Assembly: GCF_963921235.1 (NCBI RefSeq)
Contig: NC_086097.1
Span: 6,200,001 to 6,264,000 of the forward strand
Direction of reading: 5' to 3'
Source: Mobula hypostoma
Taxonomy: Eukaryota
Length of the DNA: 64,000 nucleotides
The notes beneath the pieces are model-generated. The model was not told the origin of the DNA and made no database searches. It saw only the letters and a program-made list of their open reading frames with translations. The first letter of the stretch is position 1, and the number at the start of each line of letters is the position of its first letter. Below, piece by piece: positions 3,811-62,174 of this stretch. Position numbers and translations under genes: made by a program.

Positions 3811-4199
3811 TACCCTTGGACAACTACATGGATAGGAAAGGTTTACCAGGAAATGGGCCAAATGCAGACAACTGGGACTAATGTAGATGGGCATCTTGGA
3901 GTCAGCGTGGAGCAGTGGGGCCAAAGAGCCTGTTTCCATGCTGTATGACACCAAGACTCTGACCTTAAATGCCTGCCTTTTGAGGAAGTCTGAGGTGATT
4001 GCAAACACCCACTATTTGTCTGCCTACTTCTGTGGGTAGATGGGAATCTGATGAAGCAGCAAACAGTCTGCTGGAGTAACTCAGTGGATCAGGCAGGAGC
4101 GTCCTAATGAAGGGTTTCAACCTGAAATGTTGACAGTGCTTTTCCTCCCACAGACCCCAGCTCCACCCGCAGAGTACCTCCAGCAGTTTCTGTTGATTT

Positions 4200-4635
4200 A
4201 TCAACTTCCTATCTGTTCTCCCCATCACTATTTTTCCATTCCCCATTCTGGCTCACCTCTTACTCCTTCCCTTCTCCTCATCTGCCTATGAGCTCCCACT
4301 GGTCTACCCCTCCCATGGTCCTTTCACCCATGGTCCACTCTCCTTTCGTAGCAGATTCTTTCTCCTCCAGCCCTTTACCTCTTCTACCTATCACCTTCCA
4401 GCTTTTTACTTCATACTCCCCTCCCCAACCTCTTGCTTTGCCCCCCACCCACCTGACTTCACCAATTACCTTCCAGCTTGTTCTTCTTACCCTCCCTCAA
4501 CATTGTCATTCTGTTGTCTTCCCTCTTTGTTCCAGTCCTGAAGAAGGGTTTAGGCCCAAAGCGCCGACTGTTTATTCATTTCCTTACATGCTACCGGATC
4601 TGCTGAGATCCTCCAGTATTTTGTGTGTGTTGTTC
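4200..4635 (+). mobile_element. Penelope-like element 3' terminus (pLTR) with degenerate hammerhead
   Basis: Pyrimidine-rich tract, then CAGTC-CTGAAGA-AGGGTTTAGGCCC..GACTG and the family tail CTGCTGAG..CTCCAG.ATTTTGTGTGTGTTG; same terminus as the RT/GIY-YIG copy at 39610-41545. Confidence 0.75.
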
Positions 4636-4821
4636 TAACAGGCTGTTTGTTGTTCCTGATTCAAGATCTGCAGTCGTTGTGTCTCCTCAGGAAGGCAATG
4701 AAACCTGACCTTGTGGAATGGAGGTCATTAGTGTCCGCCTGAATGCAGCACACATCTGCAAACTGCGCCAGATGATATCCAGCAACAGTTTTCTTTCTTT
4801 TGTACTGTATATACACAGGTT

Positions 4822-5482
4822 ATAAACACAAGAGATTCTGCAGAAGCTGGAAATCCAGAGCAACAGACACAAAATGCTGGAGGAACTCAGCAGCTCAGGC
4901 AACATCAATGGGAATGAACAACGTTTCAGGCTGAGACCCTTCTTCAGGACTGGAGAGGAAGTGTGGAAGACACCAGTATAAAAAGGTGGAGGTAGGAGAA
5001 GGAGGACAGGCTAGAAGGTGATAGGTGAATCCAGTTGGGTAGGAAAGGTAAAGGGCTGGACAGGAAGGAATCTGATAGGAGAGGGTATTGGACTATAGGA
5101 GAAAAGGAAGGAGGAGAGAGTCAGGGGGAGGTGATAGGCAGGTGCAAAGAGGTAAGAGGCCAGAATGGGGAAATGAAGAAGAGGGAGGGGGAGGGAATTT
5201 TTTTTACTGGAAGGAGAAATCGATAATCATGCCATCAGGTTGAAGGCTACCCAGGCAGAATATAAGGTATTGCTCCTCCACCCTGATGGTGACCTCACAA
5301 GAGGAGGCCATGCACTAATATGTCAGAACAGGAATGGATATTGGAATTAAAATGTTTGGCCAGTGGAAATTTCTGCTTGTGGAGGATGGAGCAGAGGTGT
5401 TCAATGAAGCGGTTCCCCAATTTATGACGAGTCTCACAAATGAAGAGGAGGCCACATCAGGAGCAGCAGACACAATATACAA
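4822..5482 (-). mobile_element. Penelope-like element 3' fragment (end of GIY-YIG region + pLTR)
   Basis: Minus strand matches the region after the GIY-YIG motifs of the 39610-41545 copy; hammerhead core CTGAAGA..GAAACGTT at ~4920-4952. Confidence 0.8.
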
Positions 5483-6125
5483 CCTTTATTGGGGTCATTA
5501 GCTTTACACACTGTTTTTTTTCCCATCTTGTTGAGTGTGGTCTTTGATTGATTTCTTTGTGTTTCCTGTATTTATTGTGATTGCCCGCAAGAAAATAAAT
5601 CTCCGGGTTGTGTATGGTGACATATAGTTTCTTTGATAGTAAATTTACTTAGAACTTTGAGCTTTCAGGTAGATTGAGAATTAGTGGGGCATTGAAGTCA
5701 ATGGAAGGGGAGCTGAAATCACATTTAATTAGCATACTTGAACAAAGGAGGTGATTTTGTCCAAAGTCTTACTGCTAAGGACTGGACAGCACTTCCCAGG
5801 TCCGTCGAATACAATTGCTTTCAGTTCCACTTATTAGGTCAAAGCTTTGGTGTCACAGTCACTGCCACTGTAATAAAGGGATAGTGGAGCAGTGTGACAA
5901 CTCTGAAATGTGAATAAGGCTTGTCTTTTTAAAAATTAAAAAATATATGCAGTCTGTTCCCTGCAGGAAATTACCAATAAACTGTTATTTGCTGAATTTT
6001 TTTATTCATTTAACAGATTAGCATGAAACTAATGGCTGGGAATCTGAATAACTCCCTCGATTTCCTCTCTGTGATTAACAGGATGTCAGATTAATGGGTT
6101 GGAACATAATATATCATAAACTCAA

Positions 6126-6225
6126 TCCTGAAGAAGGGTCTTGGTCCAAAACTTTGACTGTTTGTTCACTTCCATGGGTTCTGCTTGACCTGCTGAGTTT
6201 CTTCAGCATTTTGTGCATGTTGCTT
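6126..6225 (+). mobile_element. ~100-bp Penelope pLTR-only insertion starting at the hammerhead core
   Basis: Begins TCCTGAAGAAGGGTC; flanked by a 9/10-matching direct repeat ATAAACTCAA (6116-6125) / ATAAAATCAA (6226-6235). Confidence 0.7.
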
Positions 6226-6242
6226 ATAAAATCAAAAATATG

Positions 6243-13462: not shown

Positions 13463-15577
13463 AACACACAGGTATATATATAGTTGAATTAAATAAGCAG
13501 TGCAAAAAAGAGAAAACAAGTTAGAGAGGTAGTCTTCACGGGTTCAAAGCCCTTTCAGAAATTGGTTGGCAGAGAGGAAGAAGCTGTTCCTGAATCACTG
13601 AGTGTGTGCCTTCAGGCTTCCGAACCTCCTCCCAGATGGTACCAATGAGAAGAGGACAAGCCCTGGGTGATGGGATCATTACTGACGGATGCCACCTTTC
13701 TGGAGCATTGCTCCTTGAAGATGCCCTGGATGCTGGGGAGGCGAGTGTCTATGATGAAGCTGACTGAGTTTGCAACTTCCTGCAGCTTATTTTAATCCTG
13801 TGCAGTGCCTCGCCACACCAGACAGTGATGCAACCAGTTAGAATGCTCTCCACAGTGCATCTGCAGAAATGTGTGAGTTTTTATGATGACAGACCAAATC
13901 TCCTCAGACTCTCAATGAAATATAGCAACTATTGGGTCCTCTTTGCAACAGCATTGATACTATATGTCAGGCCCAGGACAGACCCCGGGAGATGTTCAGG
14001 TAGTATAATAATTCTGTTCCATTCTCCAGAGAAGGATGACGGGGTGATGAAAATATATTTTAAAAATCACTGCAGATGTTGGAAGTCTAAAACAAAAACT
14101 AAAATAGCCGGAAATTTTCAAAAGGTCAGGCTGCAAGAGACATTTCAGGTCAGAAATCCTTCATCAAAACTGAAAATGGGATGAAAGAAGCATGCAGGGA
14201 GGAGAAGGTCTCTGACATGTTAAAGCCAGGGTGGCCATTGGGAAAAGATATAAATGACTTCCCCTGGCCAATAAGTAAATGGGAGAAGTTATTTCAAAGG
14301 CAGCAAATCCAGCACCTAAACGCTACAGTATTTATTGGACTATATGCCTGCTGTAAATACTTCTGTTTTTAATTCAAGCTTCTCTCCCCCCGATATGCCT
14401 TTTAATCAGGAATGACATATATAATTAAGGGATTCTTCAGCGGTGGGAAGGAGAAATGAGATGGCAATATTTCAGAAGTAAGGAATTTCATACTTGGCAC
14501 TCAGCCCCAAAGGAGAAAGAGAGCCTTGAGTCTTGGCCACAGTTGTTCACTAAATCCGAATGAACAGATAAACCACACAAGTTAGAGGAGAAAAGAGGCT
14601 GATGAGTCCTGAAGAAGGGTCACGGCTCAAAACATCGACTGTTTGTTCATTCCCACAGATGCTGTCTGACCTGCTGAGTTCCTCCAGCACATTGTGTGTG
14701 TTGCTAGGAGATAAAGAAACTGCCTTTAGTTTCCATGATAGAAGTTGAAAGATATTTCACTTCATCAACTGAAATTTACACTCTATTCTTTTAATATGAA
14801 TTGTAATTTCAATCATATAACTACACCCCCCCCCCAACATTAACAAAGATAAAAACTATGAACTGAACAAATGCTGATAGAAAATATTTCACTACTGACA
14901 TGATCAAGCCATTTCTGTAATACGCCTGGCATCCCATTTGTTAACAGAATCTGACATGCGGAGGTTACAGACATGTCTCCAAATTATCCTTCAGTCTGTG
15001 AGCTCCAGCAGACAGAAATCAAGAAAACAAGCATTCTGATTTGCAATGCGACACGTATTTTTCTTCATGGAAAACTTCATACACAGTTAAAATATGCTGA
15101 TGGGGATAATGGCCAAGAGGAACAATAACAGTGATGACAAGTAACAGCTCTATACAATAGGGAGAGTTCACCAATTCCTCTGTTTCCTGAGAAGACTGAA
15201 GAGAGCTGGACTATGCACAACTCTACTCACGACCTTCGACAAATATGCATTAGAGATCATCCTAACAAGCTACATAACAGCATGGTACAGAAACTGCACT
15301 GCGGCAGACAGGAAGGCTGTCCATGCATCACTGGCACCAGCCTACCTGCTATCAAGGACATACAGTATATATAGAAAGGTGCAAGTAAAAGGCCAGTGAA
15401 GGATCCCAGTCAACCTGCTCATGGACTGCTGGTCCTACTCCCATCAGGGAGGAGCCTACATAACCTCCACACCAGGACAACCGGAGTCAAAAACAATTAC
15501 TTTAACAGCTGTTAACGCTGTTCAACAGCTTCATGCACTAACCTACCCCACCATTCATCCCACCCACTAATTTTATC

Positions 15578-15990
15578 AACACCCACAAAATGCTGGAGGA
15601 ATTCAGCAGGCCAGGCAGCAGCTATGGAAAAAAGTACAGTCGACATTTCAGGCCGAGACCCTACGGCAGGACTGCAGAAAAAAGGATAAGGAGTAGATCT
15701 AAAAGGCGTGGGAATAGGAGAGAGAAACGCAAGGTGACGGGGGGAGGGGGAGGAATGAAGGGAAGAGCTGGGAAGTTGATTGGTGAAAGGGATACAGGGT
15801 TGGAGAACGGGGAGTCTGAAAGGAGAGAACAGAAGGCCACGGAAGAAAAGGGGGGAGGAGCACCAGAGGGAGGCGATGTGCAGGCAAGGAGATAAGGTGA
15901 GAGAGGGAAAAGGGGATAGGGAATGGTGAAGGGGATATTGGAATCAGAGTGGGAAGTGGAATTAAAATGGGTGACCACTGGGAGGTCCCG
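15578..15990 (-). mobile_element. Penelope-like element 3' fragment
   Basis: Family tail and purine-rich tract; hammerhead with mutated core (CTGCCGT) at ~15636-15675. Confidence 0.75.
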
Positions 15991-16996
15991 CTCTGGCCTC
16001 CTCTACTGCTGTGATGAGGCCACTCTCCTTTTCCCTCTCTCACCTTATCTCCTTGCCTGCCGTCACTTTATGGACGTACAATCAATCTATGTATTTAAGC
16101 TATCTTGTGTCATCATCATCATGTGTCATGCCGCATGACTTGGGCAATTATGGTCTTTGAATACGGTTGTTGTTGGTAAATTTTTCTACAGATGTAGTTT
16201 GATAGAATCGTATGTGTTTATATATATTGTGTATTTTTTATTATTGTGTTCTTTATCTTATTGTGCTTTTTTGTGCTGCATTAGGTCGAGAGTAACAATT
16301 ATTTTGTTCTCCTTTACACTTGTGTACTGGAAATGACATTGAACAATCTTGATTATATTTTATCAAATGGTTCTGTGAAGAGGTTTGATTAAGTAGCTAA
16401 TTCAAAATGCTTCATACTCTCAGTAAATTGATCAGCAGCTCCAAATCCCCACAGGAGACACACAGAATCTTTTCATTTCTAGGGATAATAATTACAATTA
16501 TTTTGTAATTATTCTTCTGGAAAAAGACCCCTGTAATTTTCTCAGAGGTACTTATTAGAAATATTGCTTAAAATATTATTACTAAATTTAAAATGAGTAC
16601 AGGTGTCATGGAGGGTGATTATTTACCGATTAGTTAACCGGTTAAGTCTAAGCAGGGATTATTCCCAGTTGTTGGGTACATGTGTGGATCAGTGAGGAGT
16701 TGGGCTACTGCAGGCTGCCAAGGACCCAGTCTGGACTGTAGTAGATTTCCTGAATGAAGCCAGGAAGTGATTCTGCATTGAGGGTGGAAAGGTCTGGAAA
16801 CTCTGTTGGAGGTGCTATCTTCTTGATAAATTCTTAAGTGGTCGGTCTTACTGGTGTCAGTGCTGCTTTCCAGTGTTCGTTCGTCAAAAGACAAACAGTT
16901 TTGTGCTCGACTGCAGACTACTGCAACATTCATGGACTCAGGGATTTTGACTTTTTTTTTGTGTGACTGGATTTTACTGATATCTTCTATATAGTA

Positions 16997-17301: not shown

Positions 17302-17840
17302 TATATTACATACTATATGTGCCTTGTGCTGTGTATAACTGTTGGAACTATGTTTTGCACCTTGGCCCTGGAGTAACACTGTTTCATTTGGCTGGAATCT
17401 TGGGTGTACATGCAGGGTGGTCTGTCTCCCTGTGAATTATATCCTAATGAAGAGTCTCAGCCTGAAGCATCGATGGTTTATTGCTATTCATAGATGCTGC
17501 CTTACCTGCTGAGTACCTCTCGCACTTTGTGTGTGTTACTTGGGAATGGAAATGACTAGGGTACGGCAGTAGCATAGCAGAGAACAGCATTAGTAGCTCT
17601 CAAGAAACCTTTCACTCTACCTCTTCTTCTCACTTGACTATCACTTCCCCATGGCGTCCCACCCCCTTCCCCTTCTCCCATGGTCCACTCTCCTCTCCTA
17701 TTAGATTCCTTCTTCTCCAGCCTTTCCAACCTACCAGGTTTCATCTAGCATTCTCTAGCTAGTCCTCCTTCCCTCCCCACTAACTTTTTATTCTGGCATC
17801 TTCCTCCTTCTTTTCCAGTCCTGAAGAAGAGTTTCGTCCT

Positions 17841-20800
17841 TGGCTGTTGACTGGAATACTGTGCAGTCGCAATGGAAGCATTCCTGTGCAAGTCGGACAG
17901 AGAGGTTTAAAAAGCAGAAAGTCTTTTCAGCGGGAGTCATTGATTGGGGTACTGCGCAAATGCAGTGGAAGCGTTCCTGCGCAAGTCCGACGGAGAGCTT
18001 TAAAAAACCTGTCTCCGTAAAAGGGGGGTACTGCCTAGCAGAGCGGTCATCATGGGAATGGTCTGAGTCAGAGTGGTAAAGCTTTGGCTCAACAGGGCTT
18101 CAGAAAGAACAGGCGTAGACAAGGTAAGTGGGTAAATTCATTCCTTATTTCTTACTTCTTCTTTCTTATTTAACTCTTGAGAGAATAAGGGGTATTCTGT
18201 TCTGGGTGTCGGATATGGGATTTCCAGGAGACGATGGCCACATCTGCACTGGGTGCATCGAGATGCACCTCCTTAGAGACCGTGTTAAGGAACTGGGGTT
18301 GGAGCTCAGGGCAGGGAAGCAGTGACAGACAGGAGTGACAGGGAGGGAGCCACCTCAAGGCCTACAGGAGCCAGGTAAATGGATGACTCTCAGGAAGGGA
18401 GAATGTCTGATAGTGGAGTAAACCCTGTGGCTGTCCCCCTCGAAAATAAGTACCCCACTTTGAGTACTGTTGGTGGAGGATGACCTACTTGGGGGAAGCA
18501 ACAGCAGCCGTGCCTCTGGCACTGAGTCTGGCCCTATGGCTCAGAAGGGTAGGTTACTGAAGAGGATGGCAGCAGTAATAGGGGACTCTGTAGTTAGGCG
18601 GACAGACTGACGATTTGGTGGATGGGAATAAGGAACACGGATGGTAGTTAGCCTCCCAGGTGCCAGGGTCCACATGTTTCTGAACACATCCACACTGTCC
18701 TGAAGAGGGAGGGAGAGCTGCCAGAAGTCATGGTACCAATGGCATAGGTAGAAAAAGGAAGGAGGTCCTGAAAATAGAATCCAGGGTGATAGGAAGCTGT
18801 GAGGCAGGGCATTAAGGGTTGTAATCTGAGGATTGCTGCCTGTGACACACGACAATGAGGATAGGAATGAAATAAGGTGGAGGATAAATGCATGGCCGAA
18901 GAGTTGGAGCAGGGGGCAGGGATTCATACTTCTGGATAATTGGGACCTCTTCTGAGGCAGGTGTGACGTGTACAAAAAGGACAGTTTGCACTTGAATCCG
19001 AGGGGGACCAATATTCTTGTGGGCAGATTTACTAGAGCTGTTGGGAGTGGTTTAAATTACTATGGCAGGGGGATGGGAACAGGTATGATGGAGCTGAGGA
19101 TGAGCCAGCAGGTTTACAAGTAGATGATGGATGTAAGGAAGGACAAGCCAATTAATGGGTACAAATACAGACAGAAAAAAGAGTAACATTGTACCACAGT
19201 GGTAAAATTCAAGAAGGCAAAGAATGCAGGACTAAAGGCGCTGTATTTAAATGCACGTAGCGTTCAGAGTAAAGAAAACAAACTCGAGGAGCAGCCAGAG
19301 ATTGGTCTGTATGACATTGTGGGTATCACTGAGTCATGGCTGAAAGAAGGCCACAGTTGGTAACTTATCATTAATTTGTATCGAGTGGATAGACAGGAAG
19401 GCGTAGGCGGTGGTGTGGCTCTGTTGGTAAGAGATGGAATTACATCTTTAGAAAGTGGTGACATAGGGTCAGAGAATGTTGAATCTTTCTGGATGGAGTT
19501 AAGAAGCTGCAAGGGTAAAAAGAAAACATTATAGGAATCATATACAGGCCTCCAAATAGTATCCAGCATGTGGGGTTGAGATTGCAAAGGGAGCTAGAAA
19601 GGGCATGTAATAAGGATATGTCACAATTGTAATTGGGGACTTCAATATGCAAGGGGATTGGTAAAATTTGGTTGGCGTTTGATCACAAGAGAGGGAAGTT
19701 GTTGAATGCTCACAAGATGGCTTTTTAGATTCGGTGTTCTATAATAACCCAGATCTTATTAGAGAGCTTAACGTAAGGGAACCCTGAGGAGGCAGTGATC
19801 ATCACAGTTTGAATTCATACTGTAATTTGAGAGGGAGGAACATAAGTCACATGTATCAGTATCGCAATGCGGTAAAGGGAATTACAGAGGCATGAGAGGG
19901 GAGCTTGCCCAACTGGGCTGGAGGAGGATACTGGCAGGGATGACAACAGAACAGAGATTTCTGGGAATAGTTCACAAGTCGCAGGATAGATATGTCCTAC
20001 AGAAGAAGAGGTTCTCAAATGGCAAGGCTAGGCAACCGTAGCTGACAAGTGAAGTTAAGGACTGCATAAAAGCCAAGGAAGGGCATATAAGGTAGCAAAA
20101 GTGAGTGGGAAGTTGGATGATTGGGAACCTTTTAAAATCCAACAAAAAGCAACTAAGAAAGCTATAAGAAGAGAAAAGGTGAAATATGAGGGCAAATTAG
20201 CTAATAATATAAAGCAGGAAAGTTTATTTCAGTTATGCAGTGCAGTATAAAGCGTAAAAGGGAGGTGAGAGTTGATATTGAGCCACTGGAAAATGATACC
20301 AGTGAAGTAGTATTGGGAGACAAAGAAATGGCAGACAGACTTAAAGAGCACTTTGCATCTGTCTTCACTGTGGAAGACACTAGCACTGTGCCAGAGGTCC
20401 TTGGGTGTCAGGGTGTAGGAGTGAGTGCCATTGTTATTACAAAGGAAAAAGTGCTAGGCAAACTCAAAGGTCTTAAGGTGGATAAATCACCTGGACCAGA
20501 TGGACTACATCCCAGAGTCCAGAGAGAGATTGCTGAAGAAATAACGGATGCATTGATCATAATCTTTCAAGAGTCACTTGATACTGGCATGATCCCAGAG
20601 GACTGGAAGATTGCAAATGTCACTTTACTCTCTAGGAAGGAAGGAAGGATAAGAAAGGAAATTATAGGCCATGTAGCTTAACCTCAGCAGTTGGGAAAGT
20701 GTTGGAATCTATCACTAAAGATGAAGTTTTGGGGTACTTGCAGACTAATTATAAAATAAGTCAAAGTCAGTATGGTTTCTGTAAAGGGAAACCTTGCCTG

Positions 20801-33270: not shown

Positions 33271-34122
33271 TCTCAATCAAAAATGGTATAAGGCACTGGG
33301 TGGGTGTTGCAAAATGTGGGTGTGGCATTTTCATTGAAGACTATTTTACCCTTGATATGTTCAAGTTTTCCAATGCCATCTTTGAATACTACTGTAGCAT
33401 CATCCAGTCCCTTTCTTAATTCAACTTCAGTTGAATCTGTTGCAGAGAATGTGACATGCAAATGGTGGATGGATCGCCAATCAAGTTGTAGTTGTCTCAG
33501 TGGATCACCATCTGCACAATGCTGGCCCTCCTGTTTTTACCACATACATCTGTGTTTTTACACATGGAAATTGTTATATTTCACTGCTACAAATGCCATT
33601 CTCAGAGGAGTTATTTTTTCTCCAGAATTATTTCATAGATGGATATCTGAAGTATTTCAGTATTTTTGAAATATAGTTAAAACTCGTTTTGTGTAATGAC
33701 CGAAACAGCTGAGCCAGTGTCCAATTCTACTTTAATTAATATACCGTTCACTTCTGGTGTAAGCCATTTTGCTAGTTATGAACATCGATTTCTCAAACTT
33801 CAGATAATGCCCCCCCCCGCCCCACCATTCCCCATCACCTTATCTCTCTCCCAAATTATCTCGCCTGCCCATCACCTCCCTCTGGTGATCCTTCTCCTTT
33901 TCTGTCTTTCATGGCCTTCTCTCCTCTCCAATTAGATTCTCCTCTCTCCAGCCCTCTATCTCTTCCATCGATCAACTTCCCAGCTCATTACTTCACACCT
34001 CCCACTCCTGATTTCACCTATCAGCTTGTGTTTCTCCCCCACTCCCCTTCATATTTTACCTCTGATTCCTCATCTTTTTTTCTTCAGTCCTGGCGAAGTG
34101 TCTCAGCCTGAAACGTCAACTA

Positions 34123-35873: not shown

Positions 35874-36534
35874 CTCTTTTTCACTTATGCTGCCTGGCCT
35901 GCTGAGTTCCCCCAGCATTTTCTGTGTGTTGCTTGGATTTTCAGCATCTGCAGATTTTCTCTTGTTTGTTGTTTGTTTCTTGTTAGTCTTGAAAACGTAA
36001 ATCCCAAGACTACCTAGTCCTATGTCACTCCCATCATTATCAGGTTTTTCATCCTCAGCATGATTATTATTGCTCTTTTTCAAACTGCAACTTAATTTTT
36101 TATCTTTTTTGTTTCTTTGTGTAGCTACTTAATTTGTCTGACCAACATGCTCATTGTAAGTGTCCTACTTTGTTGTATTTTCTGTAAGTTTTGCCTTTAA
36201 ATCTGCATTGGTCTAGTGTATGTGAACCCCTGCCACAACAGGAGCACAATAATTTGTTCAGACAGGATGGTTTCTATTCACACGTTACAGTCTTGTTTAT
36301 GCTCACTTTCATTCCTGACTGCAACTCAATTCAGGATCTGTCTGCTGTTTCAATTGACACAGCCATTTCAGTTGTTCTTTTAAACGTTTTGCTTCATTTA
36401 GAGCTGTTTTTGAATGCTTTCTGGTAAGATTCCACAAAATAAATGATTTCTCAGTGCATCATTAAGCCCATTATTTAACTGACAGTGCTCAGAGACAATA
36501 TCTTGAATTCAGCCACTTAAGCTGAAATAGAGTC

Positions 36535-39609: not shown

Positions 39610-41545
39610 ATCTCTTCCTGCAGATGCAGATTCATGCCACACTGCTTGCTTCTCTCTTCTACCCAAGATCCAGACATCTCACTGTCCAGGTAGGCCTATT
39701 GTCTCCGCCTGACCCTGTCACACTGAACTCACGTCCTCATACTTTGCCTCCATTCCGTCCTCTTTGTTTCAGTCCCTTCCCACCTACATCCGGGACGCTT
39801 CACATGATCTCGGTCTCCTCAACAACTTTCAGTTCCATGGCCCAGACTACCTCATTTTTACCATGGATGTTCAGTCCCTGTACTCTTCTATCCCCCATCA
39901 AGAAGGTTTAAATCTCCCTGCTTCTTCCTCAATAATAGAACCAAAGAGTTCCCCTCCACCACCCTCAGAATATTTCCTTCAACTCCTCCCTCTTTCTTCA
40001 GACTTGAGGGGTAGCCATGGGAACCTGCATGTGTCCTACCTATGCCTGGCTTTCTGTTGGCTATGTAGAACAGTCCATATTCCAAGACTTCCTCGGTAAT
40101 GTTCCGCAACTGTTCCTTTGCTACATTGATGACTGCATTGGTGCTGCTTCATGCATGCATGTTGGGCCTGTGAATTTCATCAACTTTGCCTCCATCTTCC
40201 ACCCTGCTCTTAAATTCACTTGGTCCATTTCTGACACCTCCCTCCGCTTTCTCAGTTTCTCTGTCTCCATCTCTGAAGACTGACAAAATTGTCGACTGAT
40301 ATCTTTTATAAATCTACTGATTCCCGCAGTTATCTTGACTACCTCCTTCCCACCCACGCTGTTTCCTGTAAAAAAAAGCTATTCCCTTTTCTCAGTTCCT
40401 TCGTCTCTGCTGCATCAGTTCCCTGTATGAGACTTTCTTTTCCAGGACATCAGAAATGTCCTTCTTCTTCAAAGAATGGGGTTTCACTTCCTCCATATTG
40501 ATGCAGCCTTCACCCACATCTCCAGCATTTCCTGAAAATCATGCTCACTCCATCTTCCCACTACCTTAACACGATAGGTTTCTTCTTGTCCTTACCAACC
40601 ACGCCACGAGCTTCTGCATCCAATATATTATTCTTCACTACGTCCCCCACCTCCAAAGGAATCCTACCACCAAGCACATCTTTGCCTCTCCCCCACTCTC
40701 CGTTTTCCACAGGGATCACTCCTTCTGCGATTTTCTTGTCCATTAGTCCCTCCCCACTAATCTCTCTCCCAGCACATATCCCTGCAAGCAGCCTAAATTC
40801 TACACCTGCCCATTCCCCAGCTTCATCACCTCCATGCAGGACCCCAAGCAGTTTTTCCAGGTGAGCCAAAGCTTCACCTGCAAATCTGCTGGGGTCACCT
40901 CCTGTGTGCAGTGTTCCTGATGCAGCATCCTTGACATTGATGAGACTGGTTGTAAATTGTGGGGCTGCTTTGTCGAGCATCTCGGCTCCATCTGCAAAAA
41001 GTAGGACTTACTGGTGGCTAAACATTTTAATTCTGATTCCCATTCCCATTGCGCCACGTCGTCCATAGCCTCCTCTTGCACCACAATGAGGCCACCCTCA
41101 GCAACACCTTATATTGCATTTGGGTAGCCTCCAACCTGATGGCATTAACATTGATTTCTCCTTACAGTAAAAAACTATTTTGCTCTCCCTTCTCTTTTCT
41201 TCTATTCCCTACTGTGGCCTCTTACCTCTTCTCACCTGCCTATCACCTCCCCCTGGTTCTCCTCCTCCTTCCCTTTCTCCTATGGTCCACTGTCCTCGCC
41301 AATCAGAATCCTTCCTCTCCTGCCCTTCACCTTTCCCACCCACCAGGCTTAATCTATCACCTTTGAGTTTGTTCTCCTTCCCCATCCCCCACCATTTTAT
41401 TCCGGCATCTTTGCCCTTCCTTTCCAATCCTGAAGAAGGATCTCAGCCCAAAATGTTGACTGCTTGTTCATTTCCCTGGATGCTTCCTGATCTGCTGAGT
41501 CTCGAGCATTTCGTGTGTGTTGCCTAGTATTGCCAGCATTTCTTG
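39610..41545 (+). mobile_element. Penelope-like element: RT + GIY-YIG endonuclease remnants + pLTR
   Basis: FTMDVQSLYSSIPHQEG, GVAMGTCMCPTYA, YIDDCIG, HPALKFT, TDIFYKSTDS; decayed GIY-YIG region (FTCKSAGVTSCVQCS..DIDETG..FVEHL, ~40870-40985); hammerhead remnant 41424-41462. Confidence 0.9.
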
Positions 41546-41807
41546 TTTTACCTTCACTCCTACTTTTGTGAAATTTACCAATGCGCTTACCATCCTTGTA
41601 CAACCATCTCCTCTGTTTCTTAAATCTTTTGCCCTCCGACCCAACAATGACTTTCTCATCGATTTTCTCTTCCAATTTTCTGCATTCAAAAACCATTTTA
41701 CTTCTAACTTTTCCAACTTCTGATGAAACACTGGGATGGATCATGACTGACACATTGCACTTGCTTTGCACGGTGTTCTTGAATTAAGCCTTCCTGGTAT
41801 CCATCAC

Positions 41808-42005
41808 AAACACAGAAAATCTGTGCAGATGTTGGAAATCCAAAGCAACACACACAGAATGCTAGAGGAACTCAGCAGGCCTGGCAGCATCTATGGAAAA
41901 GCATGAACAGTTGACGTTTCGGGCCGGGACTCTTCTTCAGTCCTGATGGAGGGTCTCTGCCTGAAATATTGACTGTTCACTCATTCCCATAGATGCTGCC
42001 TGATC
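41808..42005. mobile_element. Inverted pair of Penelope pLTRs joined at their hammerhead cores
   Basis: Minus arm CTGAAGA-AGAGTCCCGGCCC-GAAACGTC; plus arm CAGTC-CTGATGG-AGGGTCTCTGCCT-GAAATATT-GACTG. Confidence 0.8.
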
Positions 42006-47135: not shown

Positions 47136-47149
47136 TTGGAACTTTTGAA

Positions 47150-52250: not shown

Positions 52251-52940
52251 GGTATTTTTTTGGTAGTCATAACTTTGCAGTTAGGTGCCCTCTGATGAAG
52301 CGTTGGCGTACTATAATCACCCTGTCTATTAATAACCAAAAAAGGGCAAACATCGTTATCAATCTAAACCGAGCCATTTTCCCAGGCAACTCTCTAAGTT
52401 TACTATGGTTCTATTTAGCTTTAAACTTAGTCTCTAATTTACCGAATTGGATGAAAGTTGGGTATCAAATCAGAACAACTAAATGAGCTATACCTGAACA
52501 CATTTTCTATACAAGGATGACGTGGAATTATATGTTCATTCATCAGTTAATAGAACTATTTTCTAAAGATATAATTATGAACTTTGGACTGGATAAATGC
52601 AGAACATGAAACATAAAGGAAGATGCAATAGAGTTAATAGAATACAAAACAGAGCAGCAGGATACAATACAACCGATGGAACAAATAGTTATCTATGATA
52701 TCGGCAAACAAAGAAAATAAATCATAGTGCAATAAAGGAAAAACTTTTGACTGAATTTACTTCAAGGCTTAAGAAAATCTGCCAAGCAGAGCTCAACAGT
52801 AAACGTATAACAAAGGCAATAAACACTATTTCCATACCTATATCAGCATACTCTTTTGGCATAATACGAGCGATGATTGATAAGTTTGTGGCCTGAGGTA
52901 GAAAGAGTCAATTTCAGAAAACCCAGCACATTTATTTTTC

Positions 52941-53726
52941 GCAAACAACAGGAATTCTGCAGATGCTGGAAATTCAAGCAACACACATAAAAGTTGCTGG
53001 TGAACGCAGCAGGCCAGGCAGCATCTCTAGGAAGAGGTGCAGTCGAAGTTTCAGGCCGAGACCCTTCGTCAGGACTAACTGAAGGAAGAGTGAGTAAGGG
53101 ATTTGAAAGTTGGGGGGGGAGGGGGAGATCCAAAATGATAGGAGAAGACAGGAGGGGGAGGGATGGAGCCAAGAGCTGGACAGGTGATAGGCAAAAGGGA
53201 TACGAGAGGATCATGGGACAGGAGGTCCGGGAAGAAAGACAAGTGGGGGGGGGGAAACCCAGAGGATGGGCAAGGGGTATATTCAGAGGGACAGAGGGAG
53301 AAAAAGGAGAGTGAGAGAAAGAATGTGTGTATATAAATAAATAACAGATGGGGTACGAGGGGGAGGTGGGGCATTAGCGGAAGTTAGAGAAGTCGATGTT
53401 CATGCCATCAGGTTGGAGGCTACCCAGACGGAATATAAGGTATTGTTCCTCCAACCTGAATGTGGCTTCATCTTTACAGTAGAGGAGGCCGTAGATAGAC
53501 ATGTCAGAGTGGGAATGGGATGTGGAATTAAACTGTGTGGCCACCGGGAGATCCTGCTTTCTCTGGAGGACAGAGCGTAGGTGTTCCGAAAAGCGGTCTC
53601 CCAGTCTGCGTCGGGTCTCGCCAATATATAAAAGGCCACATCGGGACGCAGTATATCACCCCAGCCGACTCACAGGTGAAGTGTTACCTCACCTGAAAGG
53701 ACTGTTTGGGGCCCTGAGTGGTGGGC
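52941..53726 (-). mobile_element. Young Penelope 3' fragment (GIY-YIG end + pLTR) inside the MITE
   Basis: Minus strand GVIYC..GLLYIGETRRRLGDRFSEHLRSV; TSD-like CATTTATTTTTC (52929-52940) / CATTTATTTTC (53727-53737). Confidence 0.9.
53040..53077 (-). ncRNA. Minimal type I hammerhead ribozyme motif (best-preserved complete copy)
   Basis: Minus strand TAGTC-CTGACGA-AGGGTCTCGGCCT-GAAA-CT-TC^GACTG: helix I, CUGANGA core, helix II, GAAA, 1-bp helix III, UH site. Activity not shown. Confidence 0.75.
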
Positions 53727-55875
53727 CATTTATTTTCCCTACATTTACACACTTAGTCCAGCGGTTGTGGAGCATACGGATCCCTTCTTTGTAGAAGTTG
53801 GTGTCCTGGACCTCCAGAGTGGTCCTCAGCAGGGGTGATTGATAAGTTTGTGGCCTAAGGTAGAAAGAGATGAGTTATTAACTTCAAACTTTCTCCATTT
53901 TCCCCTCAAAGAGTTGAACTACATGTGCATTTAACAAGAGCTGTATAACTCATCTCCTTCTACCTTAGGCCACAAACTTATCAATCACTTCCTGCTGTGG
54001 CCCACTTCTACAAAGAAGGGATCCGTATGCTCCACGACCGCTGGACTCAGTGTGTACATGTAGGAGGGGACTATGTTGAAAAATAAATGTCCTAGGTTTT
54101 CTAAAATTGACTCTTTCTACCTTAGGCCACAAACTTATCAATCACTCTTCATATCTTGGCCCAAAACTGATCAGGAAAATTTACAAAGAAAAATTAGAAC
54201 TGAAATGACAAATTTCAGAAAACATTATGTACATTTGAATGCACTTAGATTAACCCTACCTAGGACAGAAAGGTGAAAAGGAATAACAGACATACAAAAT
54301 CTACACAACAGATAGCTCAAACTTCTAAGAATATACTTTCAAGGAAAACAGGAATCAGCACTCCTCGCGAGCATATTCATTTCTGATAAGAAATACACAT
54401 AACTAAACTTAACAGAGAGCATAACTCAGAAAAATAAAGACATTATCACTATTGAAGAAAAAGTTAACCAATGGAAGATTATGACCCTCTATGGAACACA
54501 TTCTAATGATTTGAGCAGACTAGATGTTGACAAGGAAGCATTGAACGCCTGGCTCAAGGTTGGAGACCTGTCCCCAGAAACAGGAGGGCTGTTTGTGGCA
54601 ACACAGGACCAGGTGGTTAACACAAAAAAAGATCAAAAATACAAAATAAAAGACCAACAAAGTCAAAATGATAAATGTAGAAAAATAGCGAGAAAAAAAC
54701 AAAAAAAATTCTAACATTACAAGATTCTGTAGCAGTTTAACACAATCTGATTACTTACATAGGCACAATCAAGTGGAAAACATCATGTATCAAAATCTTG
54801 TTTTGAAATTCAAACTCATAAAATAAAGCATACCTTACTATAAACACAAGTCTGAACCAGTTTTAAAGTCAGAAATCAACAAATTATATTATGACAGATC
54901 AGTCATTACAGATAGGACAATCTATAGCACTGGCCAGATATAATAGTACAGATAAACAAGCAAGAACAATTTACTGAAAAGATATAGCCATAGCAAACAC
55001 ATATCAATAACTGAAAAATACCAGAAATATGCTGAATTAAAATAGGAAATTGAAAGACTTCATAACATGAACATGGTGTACATTGCCCCAATAGTAATAG
55101 CTACAACTGGTATCACCCCAAAGGCACTAAAATGCCCCAATAGCATTAAACAATTAGGGCTACACAATAATATCTATGCAAATCTTCAGAAAGCTACAAT
55201 ACTAAACACCACTAGAATAGTTCGAAAGTTCCGAGCAATTGAGTACAATCAGATATACCCTTACCTCAGGTATTACCAACTTGAGCTGTGAAAAATTAAA
55301 TAAAAATAATAATAACTTTACTTATTTATATATTTTATTTATTTATATTTCATACATTAAGGTATATGCTCAAAGTGCTTTACACAGATTGTAAAATCAA
55401 TATAGTTATAAAAATATGAGACAATTAAAAATCATTAAGTCCAACATTATGTAGAATAAAATATAATTGAATACACCTAAATATATAAATATAATCAACA
55501 CCAGGAAGCATTAAGTAATCCTATAAGTAGGCCAAATTAAAAAAGTTAGTTTTTAGAACTGTTTTCAAAACATTCCACAGTACTATCTTCATCAGTAGAG
55601 TATTCCAGATTTTTGGTGCATGAGAGCAAACTAATAATTTAGGGAAAATGAGTTTAATAAGAGTAAGTTCCATCTGTTACTTTTCTGCCCCTATCTGTAA
55701 CTGATCTAAATCCCATGCTAATTTTTGAAGGTTATTTACATTTCTATTTGGCCATGTATGGATGCAAGGCTGGGGTGGAGTAATATCAATAAAACTATAC
55801 CTGTGAGAATCTCTACAGAACCTGGTGACCCTGTGCTTTCTTTTTGCATTACCTATTTTATATATACGCTGAGAT

Positions 55876-55877
<2 letters not shown>

Positions 55878-55951
<74 letters not shown>
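55878..55951. repeat. Microsatellite (CA)n(CGCA)n(CA)n
   Basis: Directly visible. Confidence 0.97.
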
Positions 55952-56779
55952 TTTAAATATGCTTCTTATGGTAATTTATCGTTTTTAAGGATTGCAATGC
56001 ACTGCTGCTATAAAACAACATGATATATGTCAGTGATATTAAACCTGGTTCTGATTTTGTATCATTTATTCCATTGCCAGAAATGAACATTACATGCAAT
56101 ACTAGGGTTTATAGTTCATCCTTCCTTACCCCTGAAGTAAGTAGACAGTTACGTGTTAACCACATTGATGGGGACACAGGCAAAGATAGCAGATTTCTTT
56201 ACTAAAAGTAGAAAACGCTGGAAACCCCCAGCACCAGTATCAGTGGAAAACAGAGTCAATGTTTCTGAGCAAGGACCACTCGTCAGATTTCTCCCCTGAA
56301 GGACATACATTAATGGAATAGTTCTTTGTCAAATATCCAGTGGTTTGTTCATTCATATATATTTAGTTACTTGGATTAAGATTTCCTCAGAGTTTGTCAT
56401 AGTTGGATTTGAAATTATATCTTTTTATTTAGGTGTTGGAATAATAACCAAACCGCTCTACCATCACACCTTTGAGTGGCCAATTTCGATTTCTTCCACA
56501 AATAAGAATTTCTTTCTCAATAAAAAGGCAAATTCATTTTTTTCTCTTATCTCTTTTGCTTCCATTGTAAGGGGTAGAATATATTGATTTTCATTTCAGA
56601 TGTAAACTTTATAAGGTATATACAAAAGGAAAAAAAACGTGTAAAACCTTTTACATTCTTAATATAATTCGGTCAATATTTTCAGGAGGAAAAACACATT
56701 TTTATGAAATAGTACCATTGCCACTCATGTGGTCTCAGGTGAGGCGCATTTTGTGTTTGAGGGGCTTTCCCACTGGATT

Positions 56780-57190: not shown

Positions 57191-57195
57191 TCCAT

Positions 57196-59017: not shown

Positions 59018-59069
59018 CTAGAATGCATAAAAATTAGCAAAGGTAGAGGTAAGAATTTGTTATTGCTGA

Positions 59070-60145
59070 CTCTGGATGAGGCCCTCCGTTGGTTGGGTCA
59101 ACATTGGTTATTACATCCTTGCTGTCTATACAAGCCAGTCTGCAAGCCAAGGCAGTATATGGAGAGCAAGCTGTTGCCCATGTAGCAGGCACCCTTCTCC
59201 ACACAGCTGATGAACCCAAAGGAACGGCAGAGACCGATACAGTTTGGCACCAGTGGCACCTCAGGGATTCCAGCTCCAGATTTTTCCCTCAGGGTTTACT
59301 CCTGAAGCCTTCCCCATGATTGGGTATAGCCGTAAGACAGCTGAGGTTTCCTTCTCCTCGGTGGGCTGACAACCATGACTGATGAACCCTATCTGCCCGA
59401 AGCAATCGGCTTTAAGGTGGCAGTAACCTGCCTTTGCCCCTTCTCCTGTCAGGAGAATAGTTCCGTCAGACTTAGTAGCTAAGCCACACGTGAAGGCCAG
59501 GAGCTGGACTTGGTCGTCAGAGGCTATTTGAGGTGTACACCATTGGGAGCATTTAATGGGTACCACTACTACTACATCGACTCAGGCCTAGGGGGCCGGC
59601 GTCGGGCATGATGACGGACTCTCCATTTCTCCCTCTCCCTCATCAGTGTGTTCAGTTCATCTACATTAGCCGTGCCGCTGTCTTCTAGGAGTGTGTTGAC
59701 CATAGTTTTGGAAGGGCACCCAGGGTTCATCCTCCCGCGCTTGGGCTCCCATATGATGACTAGGCTGGCAGGTATCTCGGAGTGGCGCAGACAGTGCCCC
59801 ACTAGTTGCAGTCTTCTCACCTCGATTTTAGTGGTGAGCATCAGTAGGTCGTTATAGAGCTTGACATTCGTCATGTGTTGTTGCCAACACACGTCAAGAG
59901 CCATGCAGAGCATTCGTGTATAGCAACCATCTAGAGACTTTCACATAGTCTTGGTGAGTGTTCACGTCTCACATCTGTATGTGAGAATAGACTATGACTG
60001 CTATGTAAAATCCTCTTTTTAAGCCCTCTGTTCAGGTTCGACTTCCAGATTTCCTTCATGTCATTCATAGCCCTCCACGCCAGTGCCTTCCGTACCTTTA
60101 TGTCCTTCTCCAAACTCATCACTCTTGACTCAAGGTACTTGTACT
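59070..60145 (-). mobile_element. RTE-type LINE 3' fragment (~59568-60145) next to a SINE-like element (~59070-59565)
   Basis: ORFs 59931..60122 and 59572..59913 (RRLQLVGHCLRH..IIWEP) with (AGT)n tail; adjacent element is the same family as ~44570-45225. Confidence 0.72.
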
Positions 60146-61069
60146 TAATGGGCAGTGGATCTTAACCCCGCTATCCCCACTACCCTCCCCTCCCATTCTC
60201 ACCGGCTCGGACAATCTCAAGAAACATGTTGCTGTCACCAAGGCAAAAGAACGTTGAAGCACTTGAGGGAAGATTATAATCATGCCACAGTAGTGCAGCC
60301 ACTAGCCAGATGCTGTTACATCTCGAGACGTCAGATTTCAGAGTTCAATTCCAGCATCCTCTGTAAGAAAGTTTGTACGTTCTTCCTGTGGCTCATGAGC
60401 TTCCTCTGGGTTCTCTTGTTTCCTCCCACAGTCCAAAGACATTCTGGTTAGTAGGTAAATTGTCTTGTGATTAGGCGAGGGTTAAATGGATGGGTTGCCT
60501 GGCAGGGCGGCTTGTTGGGCCTGAGGGGTAGTTTTGTGTGGTTTCTCTAAATAAATAAAATAAACACATAAACCACAGTAAGGAGAAAGGAATGTAAAAT
60601 GCAGAATTCACTACAGCGTGACCCAGGAGTGTAGAGTTGCTAGTACAATTGCTTTTCAATGTCCAAGATCACCAATCAAGTTTCAATCCCGGCTGCTTTC
60701 TGTAAGGAGTTTGTACATTCTCCCTATGACCCCTCAGGTCTCCTCTGGGTGCTCCAGTTTCCTCCCATGTTACAGAACAGGGTTTGTAAGTTGAGAACAT
60801 ACAATATTCATGCAGGAAGAGAGGTAACACTTACAGGGCTGCCCCCAGCACAATCACCGATGCAAAAGATTGATGCATTTCACTGTGTGTTTCAATGTTT
60901 CAATGTACATGCAACAAATAAAGCTAACCTCTTTAAAGGAAGAACGTAGGAGGATGCATGTTGGAAACAGGGTCATTGTGCAAGGAGGCTTTCTTGATTG
61001 GAGGTCTGCAACTAGGGGTGTGCTACAGGAATCTGTGCCGAAAACTTTGCTGTTATGTGATGTATATTG

Positions 61070-61585
61070 AAAGTGCTAAAAGCTTGTTTGAATGTTTGGA
61101 CAAGATACTAAAGAATACCATAATTTCAATGGGTACAAAGTTCAGTGTGTTGCAGTACTACGTTCATTCCACACTATCACATGGAAGCCAATTTTGGACG
61201 ACATCAAAGCAAATTGAGGGAAGACCCGAAGCTGCAGAAATGTGGTTTTTGAGAAGAATGATGAAAACATCATGGAAGGACAGAGTAACAAATGAGGAAG
61301 TGTTGCAGAAAGCCAGAATAAGAAGAGAGCTGGTATCATCAATCAGGAAAGGGCAGCTGGAATCTCTGGGGCATGTACCGAGTAAAGAGAAGCTCAAACA
61401 TCTCGCGGTGACGGCAAAACTGATGGAAGTATAAGTCGCAATCGACAATGTATGATATTCATGAGTTACATCAAGGGGTTGATAGGCAAAAGTTTTGCAG
61501 TTTATTAGAACTTCTCAAAGGCAGTTGGAAGACCGTGATCACCCACATCATTCAACACGGCACATAATGGTGATGATGATGATTG
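61070..61585 (+). mobile_element. RTE-clade 3' fragment
   Basis: EAAEMWFLRRMMKTSWKDRVTNEEVL..LGHV; (GAT)n tail. Confidence 0.82.
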
Positions 61586-62174
61586 ATTCCCTAGAGTGAT
61601 AGAGTGATAGAGTACAGAAGTGGGTCCTTCAGCTCAACTCATCCATACCAATCAGGATTTCCATCTAAGCTAATCGTACCAGCCTGTGTTTGACCCATAT
61701 CCACTTATGCTTTTTCTATCCTTGCACACCTCTAAGTACCTTTTAAATGATGCTTGTGTACCTGCCCCAACTCACACACACAAAAATGTGGAGGGAACTC
61801 AGTAGGTCAGCCAGCAACTGAGGAGAAAAACAAACTAGCAATGTTTCCAGCCAAGTCCCTTCATCAGGATATGCCTCAACCACTTTCTCTGGAAGTTCAC
61901 TCTATATATTGGTCACCTTCTGAGTGAAATTGTTGCCCCTCAGATTCTGGTTAACTCTCGCCCTCTCACCTGAAACCTCTGCCCTCCAGTTTGTGATTCC
62001 CCAGACACGGAGGAACAGACTTGGCTGCAACGAATACTAAGTTTGCAGGTGACAAGCAAAATGTATTGTGGATATCAAGTAAGATTGTCTAAGGCTACAG
62101 CAAGTTATAGAGCAAATGAAAAGTTGGGTGGAGCATTGACAGATAAATTTAATCCCAATAAGTGCAAGGTGTTT

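What the first reader, a model, noticed from the sequence alone, without database searches (positions are those of the whole stretch)
4101..61872. About 15 minimal hammerhead ribozyme motifs carried by Penelope termini
Seen: consensus CAGTC-CTGANGA-AGGGTCTCGGCC(T/C)-GAAA-CG-TC^GACTG at about 4101+, 4533+, 4920-, 6126+, 14147-, 14605+, 15636-, 17443+, 17816+ (split), 33037-33091 (both strands), 34085+, 41424+, 41908-41976 (both strands), 53040-, 56252-, 61835-. CAGTC/GACTG forms helix I; helix III is one A-U pair within palindromic ACGT. Established: Penelope-like elements carry such minimal hammerheads, proposed to cleave as dimers. Inference: roughly one copy per 4 kb, on both strands of a probable host intron, could give co-transcriptional cleavage. 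Most copies carry core mutations.
Basis: partly seen in the sequence, partly recalled or inferred. Interest (0 to 1): 0.78.

Follow-up and report, generated by a model that had tools for sequence, protein, structure and literature searches.

The report
Decayed hammerhead motifs in Penelope retroelement tails
The window holds about 17 worn-out copies of a small self-cleaving-RNA motif that ride on the tail ends of a hugely amplified Penelope-like jumping gene; this is a known association, and these copies look inactive.

Summary

The motif is the minimal type-I hammerhead (HHR) described for Penelope-like elements (PLEs) in PMC4209133. Genome copies of the same repeat encode a reverse transcriptase and a GIY-YIG endonuclease. 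They carry one HHR in each pseudo-LTR, about 95-135 nt from the insertion's 3' end. Four window copies still have endonuclease-coding remnants 260-300 nt upstream.

Genome-wide, 89,725 intact-core motifs occur against 209 for the reversed control, and 29,805 are identical 38-mers.

In the window, 13 of 17 copies have core mutations, many at CpG sites. None keeps the core, both helices and the ACGU palindrome together. Cleavage of a host transcript is therefore unlikely, and no host exon was found.

Extra findings:
- The HHR is the best-conserved block between two subfamilies (35/38).
- Insertion 5' ends cluster at the HHR's 5' edge (14 of 36), not at the cleavage site (2 of 80).

This is a known kind of element, at unusually high copy number.

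The parts
4097..4138 (+). Minimal HHR copy with G5A. Short copy that starts at the HHR 5' edge. A 20-nt inverted tail piece lies at 4068-4087.
   Evidence: CM 47.3 bits; core table; inverted repeat
4417..4632 (+). PLE 3' fragment: CT-rich UTR, HHR at 4533-4570 (G12A, A15.1G, U16.1C) and tail.
4824..5459 (-). PLE 3' fragment: GIY-YIG coding remnant at 5213-5459, UTR, and HHR at 4921-4952 with the cleavage site and helix I 3' strand deleted, then tail.
   Evidence: tblastn; CM 38.2 bits
6121..6254 (+). Short HHR+tail copy that starts at the HHR 5' edge. G12A (CpG to CpA).
14132..14174 (-). Heavily decayed HHR copy (C3T, helix I 3/5).
   Evidence: CM 21.1 bits, E=4.4e-4
14602..14723 (+). Short HHR+tail copy that starts at the HHR 5' edge. 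G12A.
15569..16002 (-). PLE 3' fragment: endonuclease remnant at 15934-16002, UTR, HHR at 15637-15674 (A6C, A9T) and tail.
17437..17542 (+). Short HHR+tail copy (G5A, A15.1G).
17669..17848 (+). UTR plus the 5' half of an HHR (17814-17848). The 3' core is unrecognisable and there is no tail.
32977..33151 (.). Head-to-head inverted pair of two copies, both truncated inside the HHR (at about A6 and G10.1). Arms are 85 nt, 98% complementary, with a 5-nt spacer. The plus copy runs on to about 33187.
33957..34124 (+). UTR plus HHR at 34085-34122 (A6G), cut off just after helix I.
35864..35968 (+). Tail-only copy without the ribozyme core. By my reading it starts at the GACTA word, the position of the helix I 3' strand just after the HHR cleavage site.
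39638..41550 (+). Longest old PLE fragment: RT and endonuclease coding remnants at 39638-41161, UTR, HHR at 41425-41462 (G12A) and tail.
41804..42002 (.). Head-to-head pair joined at the HHR 5' edges. HHR at 41908-41945(-) is the only strict pattern match in the window, but its helix I is 3/5 and helix II 3/4. HHR at 41938-41975(+) has A9G.
52877..53743 (-). Young PLE 3' fragment (95% identical over about 590 nt to a genome copy; its central 351 nt has genome copies at 96-99%): endonuclease C-terminus at 53377-53743, CT-rich UTR, HHR at 53040-53077 and tail. The core is intact, but G16.2 is T, so the ACGU palindrome is lost.
56251..56293 (-). Doubtful, very decayed HHR-like copy.
   Evidence: CM 8.9 bits, E=3.9; aligns with the family tail
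61774..61874 (-). Short HHR+tail copy. Core boxes are intact, but helix I is 3/5, helix II 2/4, and there is no palindrome.

Best explanation
[quoted passage not shown] The family has amplified enormously in this 3.48-Gb genome. In full-length copies the order is: HHR, about 85 nt, the RT and endonuclease reading frames, about 300 nt of CT-rich UTR, a second HHR, then a 95-135-nt tail. The unit between the two HHRs is 3,512 bp. Insertions are 5'-truncated and end at one of two points about 36-40 nt apart downstream of the HHR. Any copy longer than about 100-140 nt therefore carries one HHR near its 3' end, and many have an inverted partner at their 5' end. That explains both the density and the 'both strands' sites. 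Shown here: the layout, the copy numbers, the conservation pattern, and the decay of the window copies. Inferred from published work on other PLEs: reverse transcription starts internally at the two tail sites. The HHR lacks helix III and would have to pair its ACGU with a second copy or be helped by the element's protein in order to cleave after GUC. Its role in the element's cycle is unsettled. The window copies are dead passengers with no likely effect on host RNA.
For: Motif and significance.

PLE identity: L024 has an RVT_1 frame (E=1.9e-5) and a GIY-YIG frame (23.2 bits against a cut-off of 22.6) directly upstream of the repeat. Three full-length copies show the order HHR, ORF, HHR with a 3,512-bp spacing. 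In the window, coding remnants lie 260-300 nt upstream of 4 HHRs in the correct orientation.

PLE hallmarks listed in PMC8557442 are all seen:
- Variable 5' truncation.
- Adjacent inverted 5'-truncated copies: 11 head-to-head pairs against 1 convergent and 1 tandem among 13 neighbouring pairs within 2.5 kb, taken from the first 100 exact 38-mers.
- Two 3'-end classes, at +84 to +96 (11 copies) and +122 to +140 (8 copies), with 2 more at +112, among the 21 copies where the end was readable. This matches the 30-40-bp 'tail' explained by two RT start sites in PMC11167929.

Scale: 89,725 intact-core motifs, 89,638 CpG-tolerant 33-mers, 29,805 identical 38-mers and 68,217 tail 27-mers, against 209, 0, 0 and 0 for the reversed controls.

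Selection on the element's lineage: between the majority sequences of an old window subfamily (11 copies) and the young one (14 copies), the HHR is 35/38 identical. The upstream block is 30/65, the linker 5/15 and the tail 40/50. The three HHR differences fall at N7 and at two positions where C became U opposite G.

Decay in the window: 13 of 17 copies have core changes. Four of these are G12 to A at a CpG. None of the 17 is fully intact.
Against: No Rfam hammerhead family matches any copy even at E up to 10, in the window or in an intact genome copy. The hammerhead call therefore rests on the published minimal descriptor, not on a curated model.

Covariation within this genome is weak. Two of 9 pairs change on both sides, and 287 of 500 shuffles do as well. 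All subfamilies share the same helices.

The young master has U at 11.1, so the G10.1-C11.1 pair that PMC4209133 calls highly conserved is a G-U wobble. Helix II is only 4 bp.

The tail block is also conserved (80%), so conservation is not specific to the catalytic core.

No cleavage or RNA data exist for this family. Only 2 of 80 tail-anchored copies begin at the cleavage site, no more than chance. This gives no sign that cleaved RNA serves as a template.
Confidence: 0.9

Rival explanations
1. One reading: the dense copies on both strands cleave a host pre-mRNA (intron) co-transcriptionally, alone or as dimers.
For: Density is one copy per 3.8 kb. Four of 17 copies keep all invariant core positions. 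Intronic hammerheads exist in amniotes (figure legend seen in PMC6155905).
Against: None of the 17 copies has core, helix I, helix II and the ACGU palindrome all intact. Head-to-head partners lie on opposite strands, so one transcript carries only one in the sense orientation. Minimal PLE hammerheads cleave weakly even as dimers or trimers in vitro (PMC4209133). The Anolis PLE hammerhead needs its protein (PMC11167929). None of the Pfam hits among 98 scanned reading frames identified a host exon, so even the intron premise is unshown.
Confidence: 0.03
2. The hammerhead-shaped block is kept mainly as a structural or protein-binding part of the element's terminal module, or as the very start of its transcript, rather than for self-cleavage. 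The HHR plus tail would then form the cis-signal that the PLE protein recognises.
For: The HHR (92%) and tail (80%) are conserved while the 15-nt linker (33%) and the upstream UTR (46%) are not. In the tail-anchored sample, 14 of 36 insertion 5' ends fall in the 12 nt just before C3 (P=1.9e-4). One of 3 full-length copies also begins there, with what I read from the printout as a 9-bp target duplication. Only 2 of 80 copies start at the cleavage site. In PMC11167929, HHR mutants did not affect insertion in vitro and cleavage needed the protein. PMC8557442 notes that PLE clades without HHRs proliferate well.
Against: The three substitutions between subfamilies are exactly those a working hammerhead tolerates. 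All invariant catalytic positions are kept in 29,805 identical copies. A pure binding site would not need to preserve them. No binding or transcript-start data exist here.
Confidence: 0.25
3. The head-to-head pairs act as long hairpin precursors of small RNAs (microRNA-like or siRNA).
For: The segment 33007-33117 folds as a near-perfect hairpin of -108.5 kcal/mol (z=-19.3). It scores 53.2 and 51.2 bits against Rfam mir-3926.
Against: Both scores are far below the gathering score of 82, and the match is to a generic perfect hairpin. The structure is fully explained by the known PLE habit of inserting an inverted 5'-truncated copy. No small-RNA data are available.
Confidence: 0.05

Closest known systems
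Minimal hammerheads (min-HHR) of metazoan Penelope-like elements (Cervera and de la Pena 2014, PMC4209133; parts 1-2 of the text read)
   Same: Type-I layout with CUGANGA and GAAA boxes. Helix I is 5 bp. [quoted passage not shown] There is no helix III, with a palindromic 15.2/16.2 (ACGU). The motif sits in both pseudo-LTRs of an RT and GIY-YIG element. Most copies are single motifs from truncated elements, and some are pairs on opposite strands.
   Different: Copy number is about ten times the 'remarkable' cases in that paper (about 4,000 in coelacanth and 9,000 in Xenopus, against 89,725 here). Helix II is 4 bp, not 7-8 bp. The young master has a G-U at 10.1/11.1. Sequence heterogeneity is low: 29,805 identical 38-mers, which recalls the D. 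virilis case.
Poseidon element of Anolis carolinensis (PAc; Frangieh et al. 2024, PMC11167929; passages read)
   Same: The HHR lies a short distance upstream of two internal reverse-transcription start sites. The spacing between those sites gives the optional 30-40-bp 'tail'. Here, 3' ends fall in two classes about 36-40 nt apart. There is no sign that cleaved RNA is the template.
   Different: In PAc the ORF starts inside the HHR. Here the long reading frame opens about 85 nt after the HHR. The clade probably differs as well: a C-x4-C-x2-C linker before the endonuclease, as in Neptune/Nematis types. No biochemistry exists for this family.
Animal non-LTR retrozymes (PMC7229834, abstract only in the listing; Li et al. 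2026 preprint 10.64898/2026.07.22.740005, abstract and Results part 1 read)
   Same: Non-autonomous HHR-bearing sequences related to PLE pseudo-LTRs. The short HHR+tail copies here are likewise non-coding derivatives.
   Different: Retrozymes are tandem arrays thought to give circular RNAs. Here tandem same-strand neighbours are rare (1 of 13 close pairs), and the short copies are dispersed singles or head-to-head pairs.
Dimeric type-I hammerheads of newt satellite DNA (PMC6155905, passages read); the Schistosoma SM-alpha comparison is recalled, not read
   Same: An unstable or absent helix III. Activity is expected only when two copies pair.
   Different: The newt motif sits in tandem repeats, so dimers form within one transcript. 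Canonical type-I motifs have loop-loop tertiary contacts. The copies here have neither.
Intronic hammerheads of amniotes (RECK and CTCL introns; figure legend in PMC6155905)
   Different: Those are single, canonical, conserved ribozymes with helix III. The window copies are decayed minimal motifs in repeat debris.

Membership tests
PLE minimal hammerhead (descriptor of PMC4209133) | Conserved core boxes C3-U4-G5-A6-N7-G8-A9 and G12-A13-A14, A15.1, U16.1, H17 | tested here: met
   Met in the family master: 29,805 identical 38-mers and 89,725 pattern matches. In the window only 4 of 17 copies keep all of these positions.
PLE minimal hammerhead (descriptor of PMC4209133) | Helix I of 4-5 bp flanking the core and cleavage site | tested here: met
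   CAGUC or UAGUC pairs with GACUG. 82.9% of cells are paired in A1. The MFE fold of the intact copy forms it.
PLE minimal hammerhead (descriptor of PMC4209133) | Helix II closed by G10.1-C11.1, with an unpaired nucleotide between 9 and 10.1 | tested here: inconclusive
   The unpaired A is present in 15 of 17 copies. G-C is found in the older subfamily, but G-U in the young master. Helix II is 4 bp with a 4-nt loop.
PLE minimal hammerhead (descriptor of PMC4209133) | No helix III; palindromic 15.2/16.2 allowing a dimeric helix III | tested here: met
   ACGU is present in the master. It is retained in 7 of 17 window copies.
PLE minimal hammerhead (descriptor of PMC4209133) | Located in the pseudo-LTRs of a Penelope-like element | tested here: met
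   Three full-length copies each have one HHR on either side of the ORF. Window remnants agree.
PLE minimal hammerhead (descriptor of PMC4209133) | Self-cleavage after H17 | not testable with these tools
   No RNA run on record as RNA. Only 2 of 80 insertions start at the site.
Rfam hammerhead families (curated covariance models) | Score at or above the gathering threshold | tested here: not met
   No hammerhead hit at gathering or at E up to 10, in the window or on an intact genome copy. This is expected for a motif without helix III.
Penelope-like elements (EN+) | Reverse transcriptase plus C-terminal GIY-YIG endonuclease | tested here: met
   GIY-YIG scores 23.2 bits against a cut-off of 22.6. 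RVT_1 has E=1.9e-5 but 24.9 bits, below its 29.6 cut-off. Single open frames of up to 1,054 codons reach through the endonuclease.
Penelope-like elements (EN+) | Pseudo-LTRs, strong 5' truncation, adjacent inverted 5'-truncated copy, optional 30-40-bp tail (PMC8557442) | tested here: met
Neptune/Nematis-type PLE clades | CX2-5CxxC zinc-finger-like linker between RT and EN | tested here: inconclusive
   A C-x4-C-x2-C stretch precedes the GIY-YIG domain in the L024 frame. No phylogeny was made.

The most novel reading that the evidence does not exclude
The HHR's 5' edge marks the 5' end of the element's template RNA. This end is probably the transcription start: an initiator-like word sits there, a consensus I recall rather than tested. 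The roughly 100-175-nt HHR+tail block would then be a self-sufficient retrotransposition module. Because reverse transcription starts at an internal tail site that is also present near the RNA's 5' end, priming there would copy only the leader. That would yield the many 'solo' HHR+tail insertions: roughly a quarter to a third of copies (11 of 30 HHR-anchored; 21 of 80 tail-anchored with ends at -11 to +7). On such RNAs the 5' HHR would lack most of its helix I strand and be protected from self-cleavage. Only read-through or tandem transcripts would carry a complete ribozyme.
Probability: 0.3. Interest if true: 0.45.

Novelty: new member of a known kind. Interest (0 to 1): 0.27.

Why it matters
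The association of minimal hammerheads with Penelope-like elements has been in print since 2014, so the finding itself adds little. What this genome offers is scale and youth. It holds tens of thousands of near-identical insertions, with endonuclease frames 100% identical in most of the 150 copies scored. Insertion end points can therefore be read like an experiment. Here they argue that uncleaved RNA is the usual template and that the HHR's 5' edge is a preferred element start. Both bear on the open question of what the PLE hammerhead is for.

Tried and rejected
1. Rfam: no hammerhead family at gathering or at E up to 10. The only notable hits were generic hairpin matches (mir-3926, MIR1858), all below threshold.

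2. A fuzzy-regex scan timed out. It was replaced by BLAST and a covariance model.

Pattern counts were used instead.

4. RNA evidence: no RNA holder was listed. Contigs of four runs laid on a full-length copy behaved like low-coverage DNA of repeat-rich relatives. They showed no consistent joints and no read ends, so nothing can be said about expression, splicing or cleavage.

5. Covariation within the genome is uninformative, because all subfamilies share the same helices.

6. I suspected a family-wide -1 frame offset between the RT and endonuclease frames, seen in 3 of 3 full-length copies. This was rejected: other copies have single frames of 990-1,054 codons.

7. A 3' splice-acceptor reading of the CT-rich tract followed by CAG before the HHR is not supported. 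Copies that start at the HHR edge share no upstream exon-like sequence.

That question rests on 3 copies only, of which 1 starts at the HHR edge.

9. Host-gene context: only 98 of 205 reading frames of 75 codons or more were scanned. No host exon was seen, which proves little.

10. Earlier notes of this scan: nothing for this place.

Full report
**The observation**

The window contains a repeated block. It consists of a 38-nt motif (CAGUC, CUGANGA, A, GGGUCUCGGCCY, GAAA, CGUC, GACUG) followed by a conserved tail of about 95-135 nt.

I built a covariance model from 12 window copies and 2 genome copies, with helix I (5 bp) and helix II (4 bp) imposed. Run unfiltered over both strands, it finds 17 matches at E<1e-3. 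Five of these were not in the training set. The next-best hit is 13.4 bits.

Genome-wide, the strict pattern CTGANGA-N10-16-GAAACGTC occurs 89,725 times, against 209 for the reversed control. Chance is therefore excluded. The window holds just one strict match, at 41913-41940(-). That is close to the genome average of one per 39 kb.

**What carries the motif**

The youngest window copy's central 351 nt (52900-53250, minus strand) has genome copies at 96-99% identity (40 scored of 4,315 first-look candidates).

Comparing loci shows a constant 3' end and variable 5' truncation. Longer copies run into reading frames with RVT_1 similarity (E=1.9e-5, below Pfam's cut-off) and a GIY-YIG domain (23.2 bits, above the cut-off).

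Three full-length copies show the complete layout:
- an HHR;
- about 85 nt;
- a 935-codon RT frame and the endonuclease frame;
- about 300 nt of CT-rich UTR;
- a second HHR, 3,512 bp after the first;
- the tail.

This is the pseudo-LTR organisation of Penelope-like elements. In the window, tblastn with those frames finds coding remnants 260-300 nt upstream of four HHRs, in the correct orientation: 5213-5459(-), 15934-16002(-), 39638-41161(+) and 53377-53743(-).

The protein searches returned 137,107 and 229,526 first-look candidates. Some copies have single open frames of 990-1,054 codons.

**Agreement with published PLE anatomy**

PMC8557442 (passages) lists four PLE traits: strong 5' truncation, partial tandems forming pseudo-LTRs, an inverted 5'-truncated copy adjacent to the 5' end, and an optional 30-40-bp tail. 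All are seen here.

Among the first 100 places of the exact 38-mer, 13 neighbouring pairs lie within 2.5 kb. Eleven are head-to-head, one is convergent and one is tandem.

- arms 32977-33061 and 33067-33151 (85 nt, 98% complementary);
- arms 41883-41940 and 41943-42000.

In one search the 3' end was readable in 21 copies. Eleven end at +84 to +96, eight at +122 to +140, and two at +112, counted from C3. PMC11167929 (passages) explains exactly such a tail by two internal reverse-transcription start sites.

**Is it a hammerhead?**

The motif meets the minimal-hammerhead descriptor of PMC4209133:
- both core boxes;
- a 5-bp helix I;
- an unpaired A after A9;
- no helix III;
- a palindromic ACGU that could form a 4-bp helix III between two copies.

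Three points count against, or at least qualify, the call:
- Helix II is only 4 bp, and in the young master position 11.1 is U, giving a G-U wobble.
- No Rfam hammerhead model matches, even on an intact copy.
- Covariation inside this genome is uninformative.

Support for selection comes from comparing the majority sequences of an old subfamily (11 window copies) and the young one (14 genome copies):
- HHR: 35/38 identical;
- upstream UTR: 30/65;
- linker after helix I: 5/15;
- tail: 40/50.

The caveat is that the tail is conserved too.

**State of the window copies**

Thirteen of 17 copies have changes at invariant positions. The ancestral motif has CpGs at C11.1/G12, C15.2/G16.2 and C17/G1.1, and the young master also has one at N7/G8. 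Much of the damage is CpG decay. Four copies, for example, have G12 changed to A.

The four copies with intact cores each fail elsewhere:
- 41908-41945: helix I 3/5 and helix II 3/4;
- 53040-53077: G16.2 is U, so there is no palindrome;
- 61835-61872 and 56251-56291: weak helices and no palindrome.

None of the 29,805 exact master 38-mers lies in the window.

Published minimal PLE hammerheads cleave poorly even as dimers, and the Anolis one needs its protein. Co-transcriptional cutting of a host transcript by these relics is therefore very unlikely.

Whether the window is intronic could not be determined. The Pfam hits among 98 of 205 reading frames were LINE, LTR-element and PLE-type reverse-transcriptase or nuclease domains plus a few weak or repeat-type hits, and none identified a host exon.

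**Where insertions begin**

In the window, about 10 of 17 copies start within a few nucleotides of the HHR's 5' edge.

I tested this on 80 genome copies chosen only by an exact tail 27-mer, the first 80 places. The 5' ends, counted from C3, fell as follows:
- 44 copies extend 40 nt or more upstream of C3;
- 5 start at -39 to -12;
- 14 start at -11 to 0;
- 12 start at +1 to +26;
- 4 start at +27 to +33;
- 1 starts at +34.

For the 36 ends between -39 and +46, 14 in a 12-nt window is unexpected (5.0 expected; P=1.9e-4).

Caveats apply. Several head-to-head pairs contribute both arms, two rows look like duplicates of one locus, and boundaries are good only to a few nucleotides.

One of three full-length copies also begins at the HHR edge, with what I read from the printout as a 9-bp target duplication. 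Only 2 of 80 copies begin at the cleavage site (P=0.20). One window copy (35864-35968) may also begin there.

These counts fit uncleaved RNA as the usual template, as PMC11167929 found in vitro. They also suggest that the template's 5' end lies at the HHR edge. That interpretation is inference. No RNA data could be obtained.

**Verdict**

This is a real and correctly recognised motif of a known kind. It belongs to a very large and apparently recently active PLE family. The window copies are inert relics. The host-cleavage idea is not supported.

Noticed in passing
window 32977-33151: Near-perfect 175-nt palindrome made of two head-to-head PLE tails joined inside the HHR. The central 111 nt (33007-33117) folds at -108.5 kcal/mol. 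It scores 53.2 and 51.2 bits against Rfam mir-3926, below the gathering score of 82.
   Followed up: partly
window 35864-35968; loci L098 and L121: A few copies begin exactly at the nucleotide after the HHR cleavage site, as expected for cDNA of self-cleaved RNA. They are rare (2 of 80 in the genome sample), no more than chance.
   Followed up: partly
loci L044, L045, L046 (reverse-complemented): In 3 of 3 full-length copies examined, the 935-codon RT frame and the GIY-YIG frame are offset by -1 and overlap by about 290 nt; by my reading of the L030 frames the shift lies at a run of C. Other genome copies have single frames of 990-1,054 codons, so the offset is not family-wide.
   Followed up: partly
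window 52900-52940 and 54078-54118; loci L002-L009: The young PLE copy is flanked by 41-76-nt inverted repeats. The whole 3.3-kb neighbourhood recurs at 96-99.8% identity at seven other genome places (L003-L005 and L007-L009 against L002), so it is part of a larger duplicated or composite unit.
   Followed up: no
window 15861-16074: Long inverted repeat next to the PLE fragment at 15569-16002. It gives sub-threshold matches to plant microRNA hairpin models on both strands (39 and 35 bits against a gathering score of 137).
   Followed up: no
locus L045 6467-6520(-), the tail between the two 3'-end classes: The tail holds a small stem-loop that weakly resembles the UnaL2 LINE 3' element (16 bits against a gathering score of 55, E=2.3). 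This recalls the stem-loop at which the Anolis PLE starts reverse transcription.
   Followed up: no
locus L045 6559-6598(-): In the young master N7 is C. This makes GACG in the core complementary to CGUC at the cleavage site. The predicted monomer fold pairs them, which could hold a single copy in an inactive shape (z-score not significant).
   Followed up: no
window 2090-2701(+), 12010-12609(-), 20636-20926(+), 27524-27928(-), 30482-32110(-), 47149-49466(+): Other retroelement debris: LINE-type RT frames (one with an AP-endonuclease domain at 47149-47778) and an LTR-type RNase H fragment.
   Followed up: no
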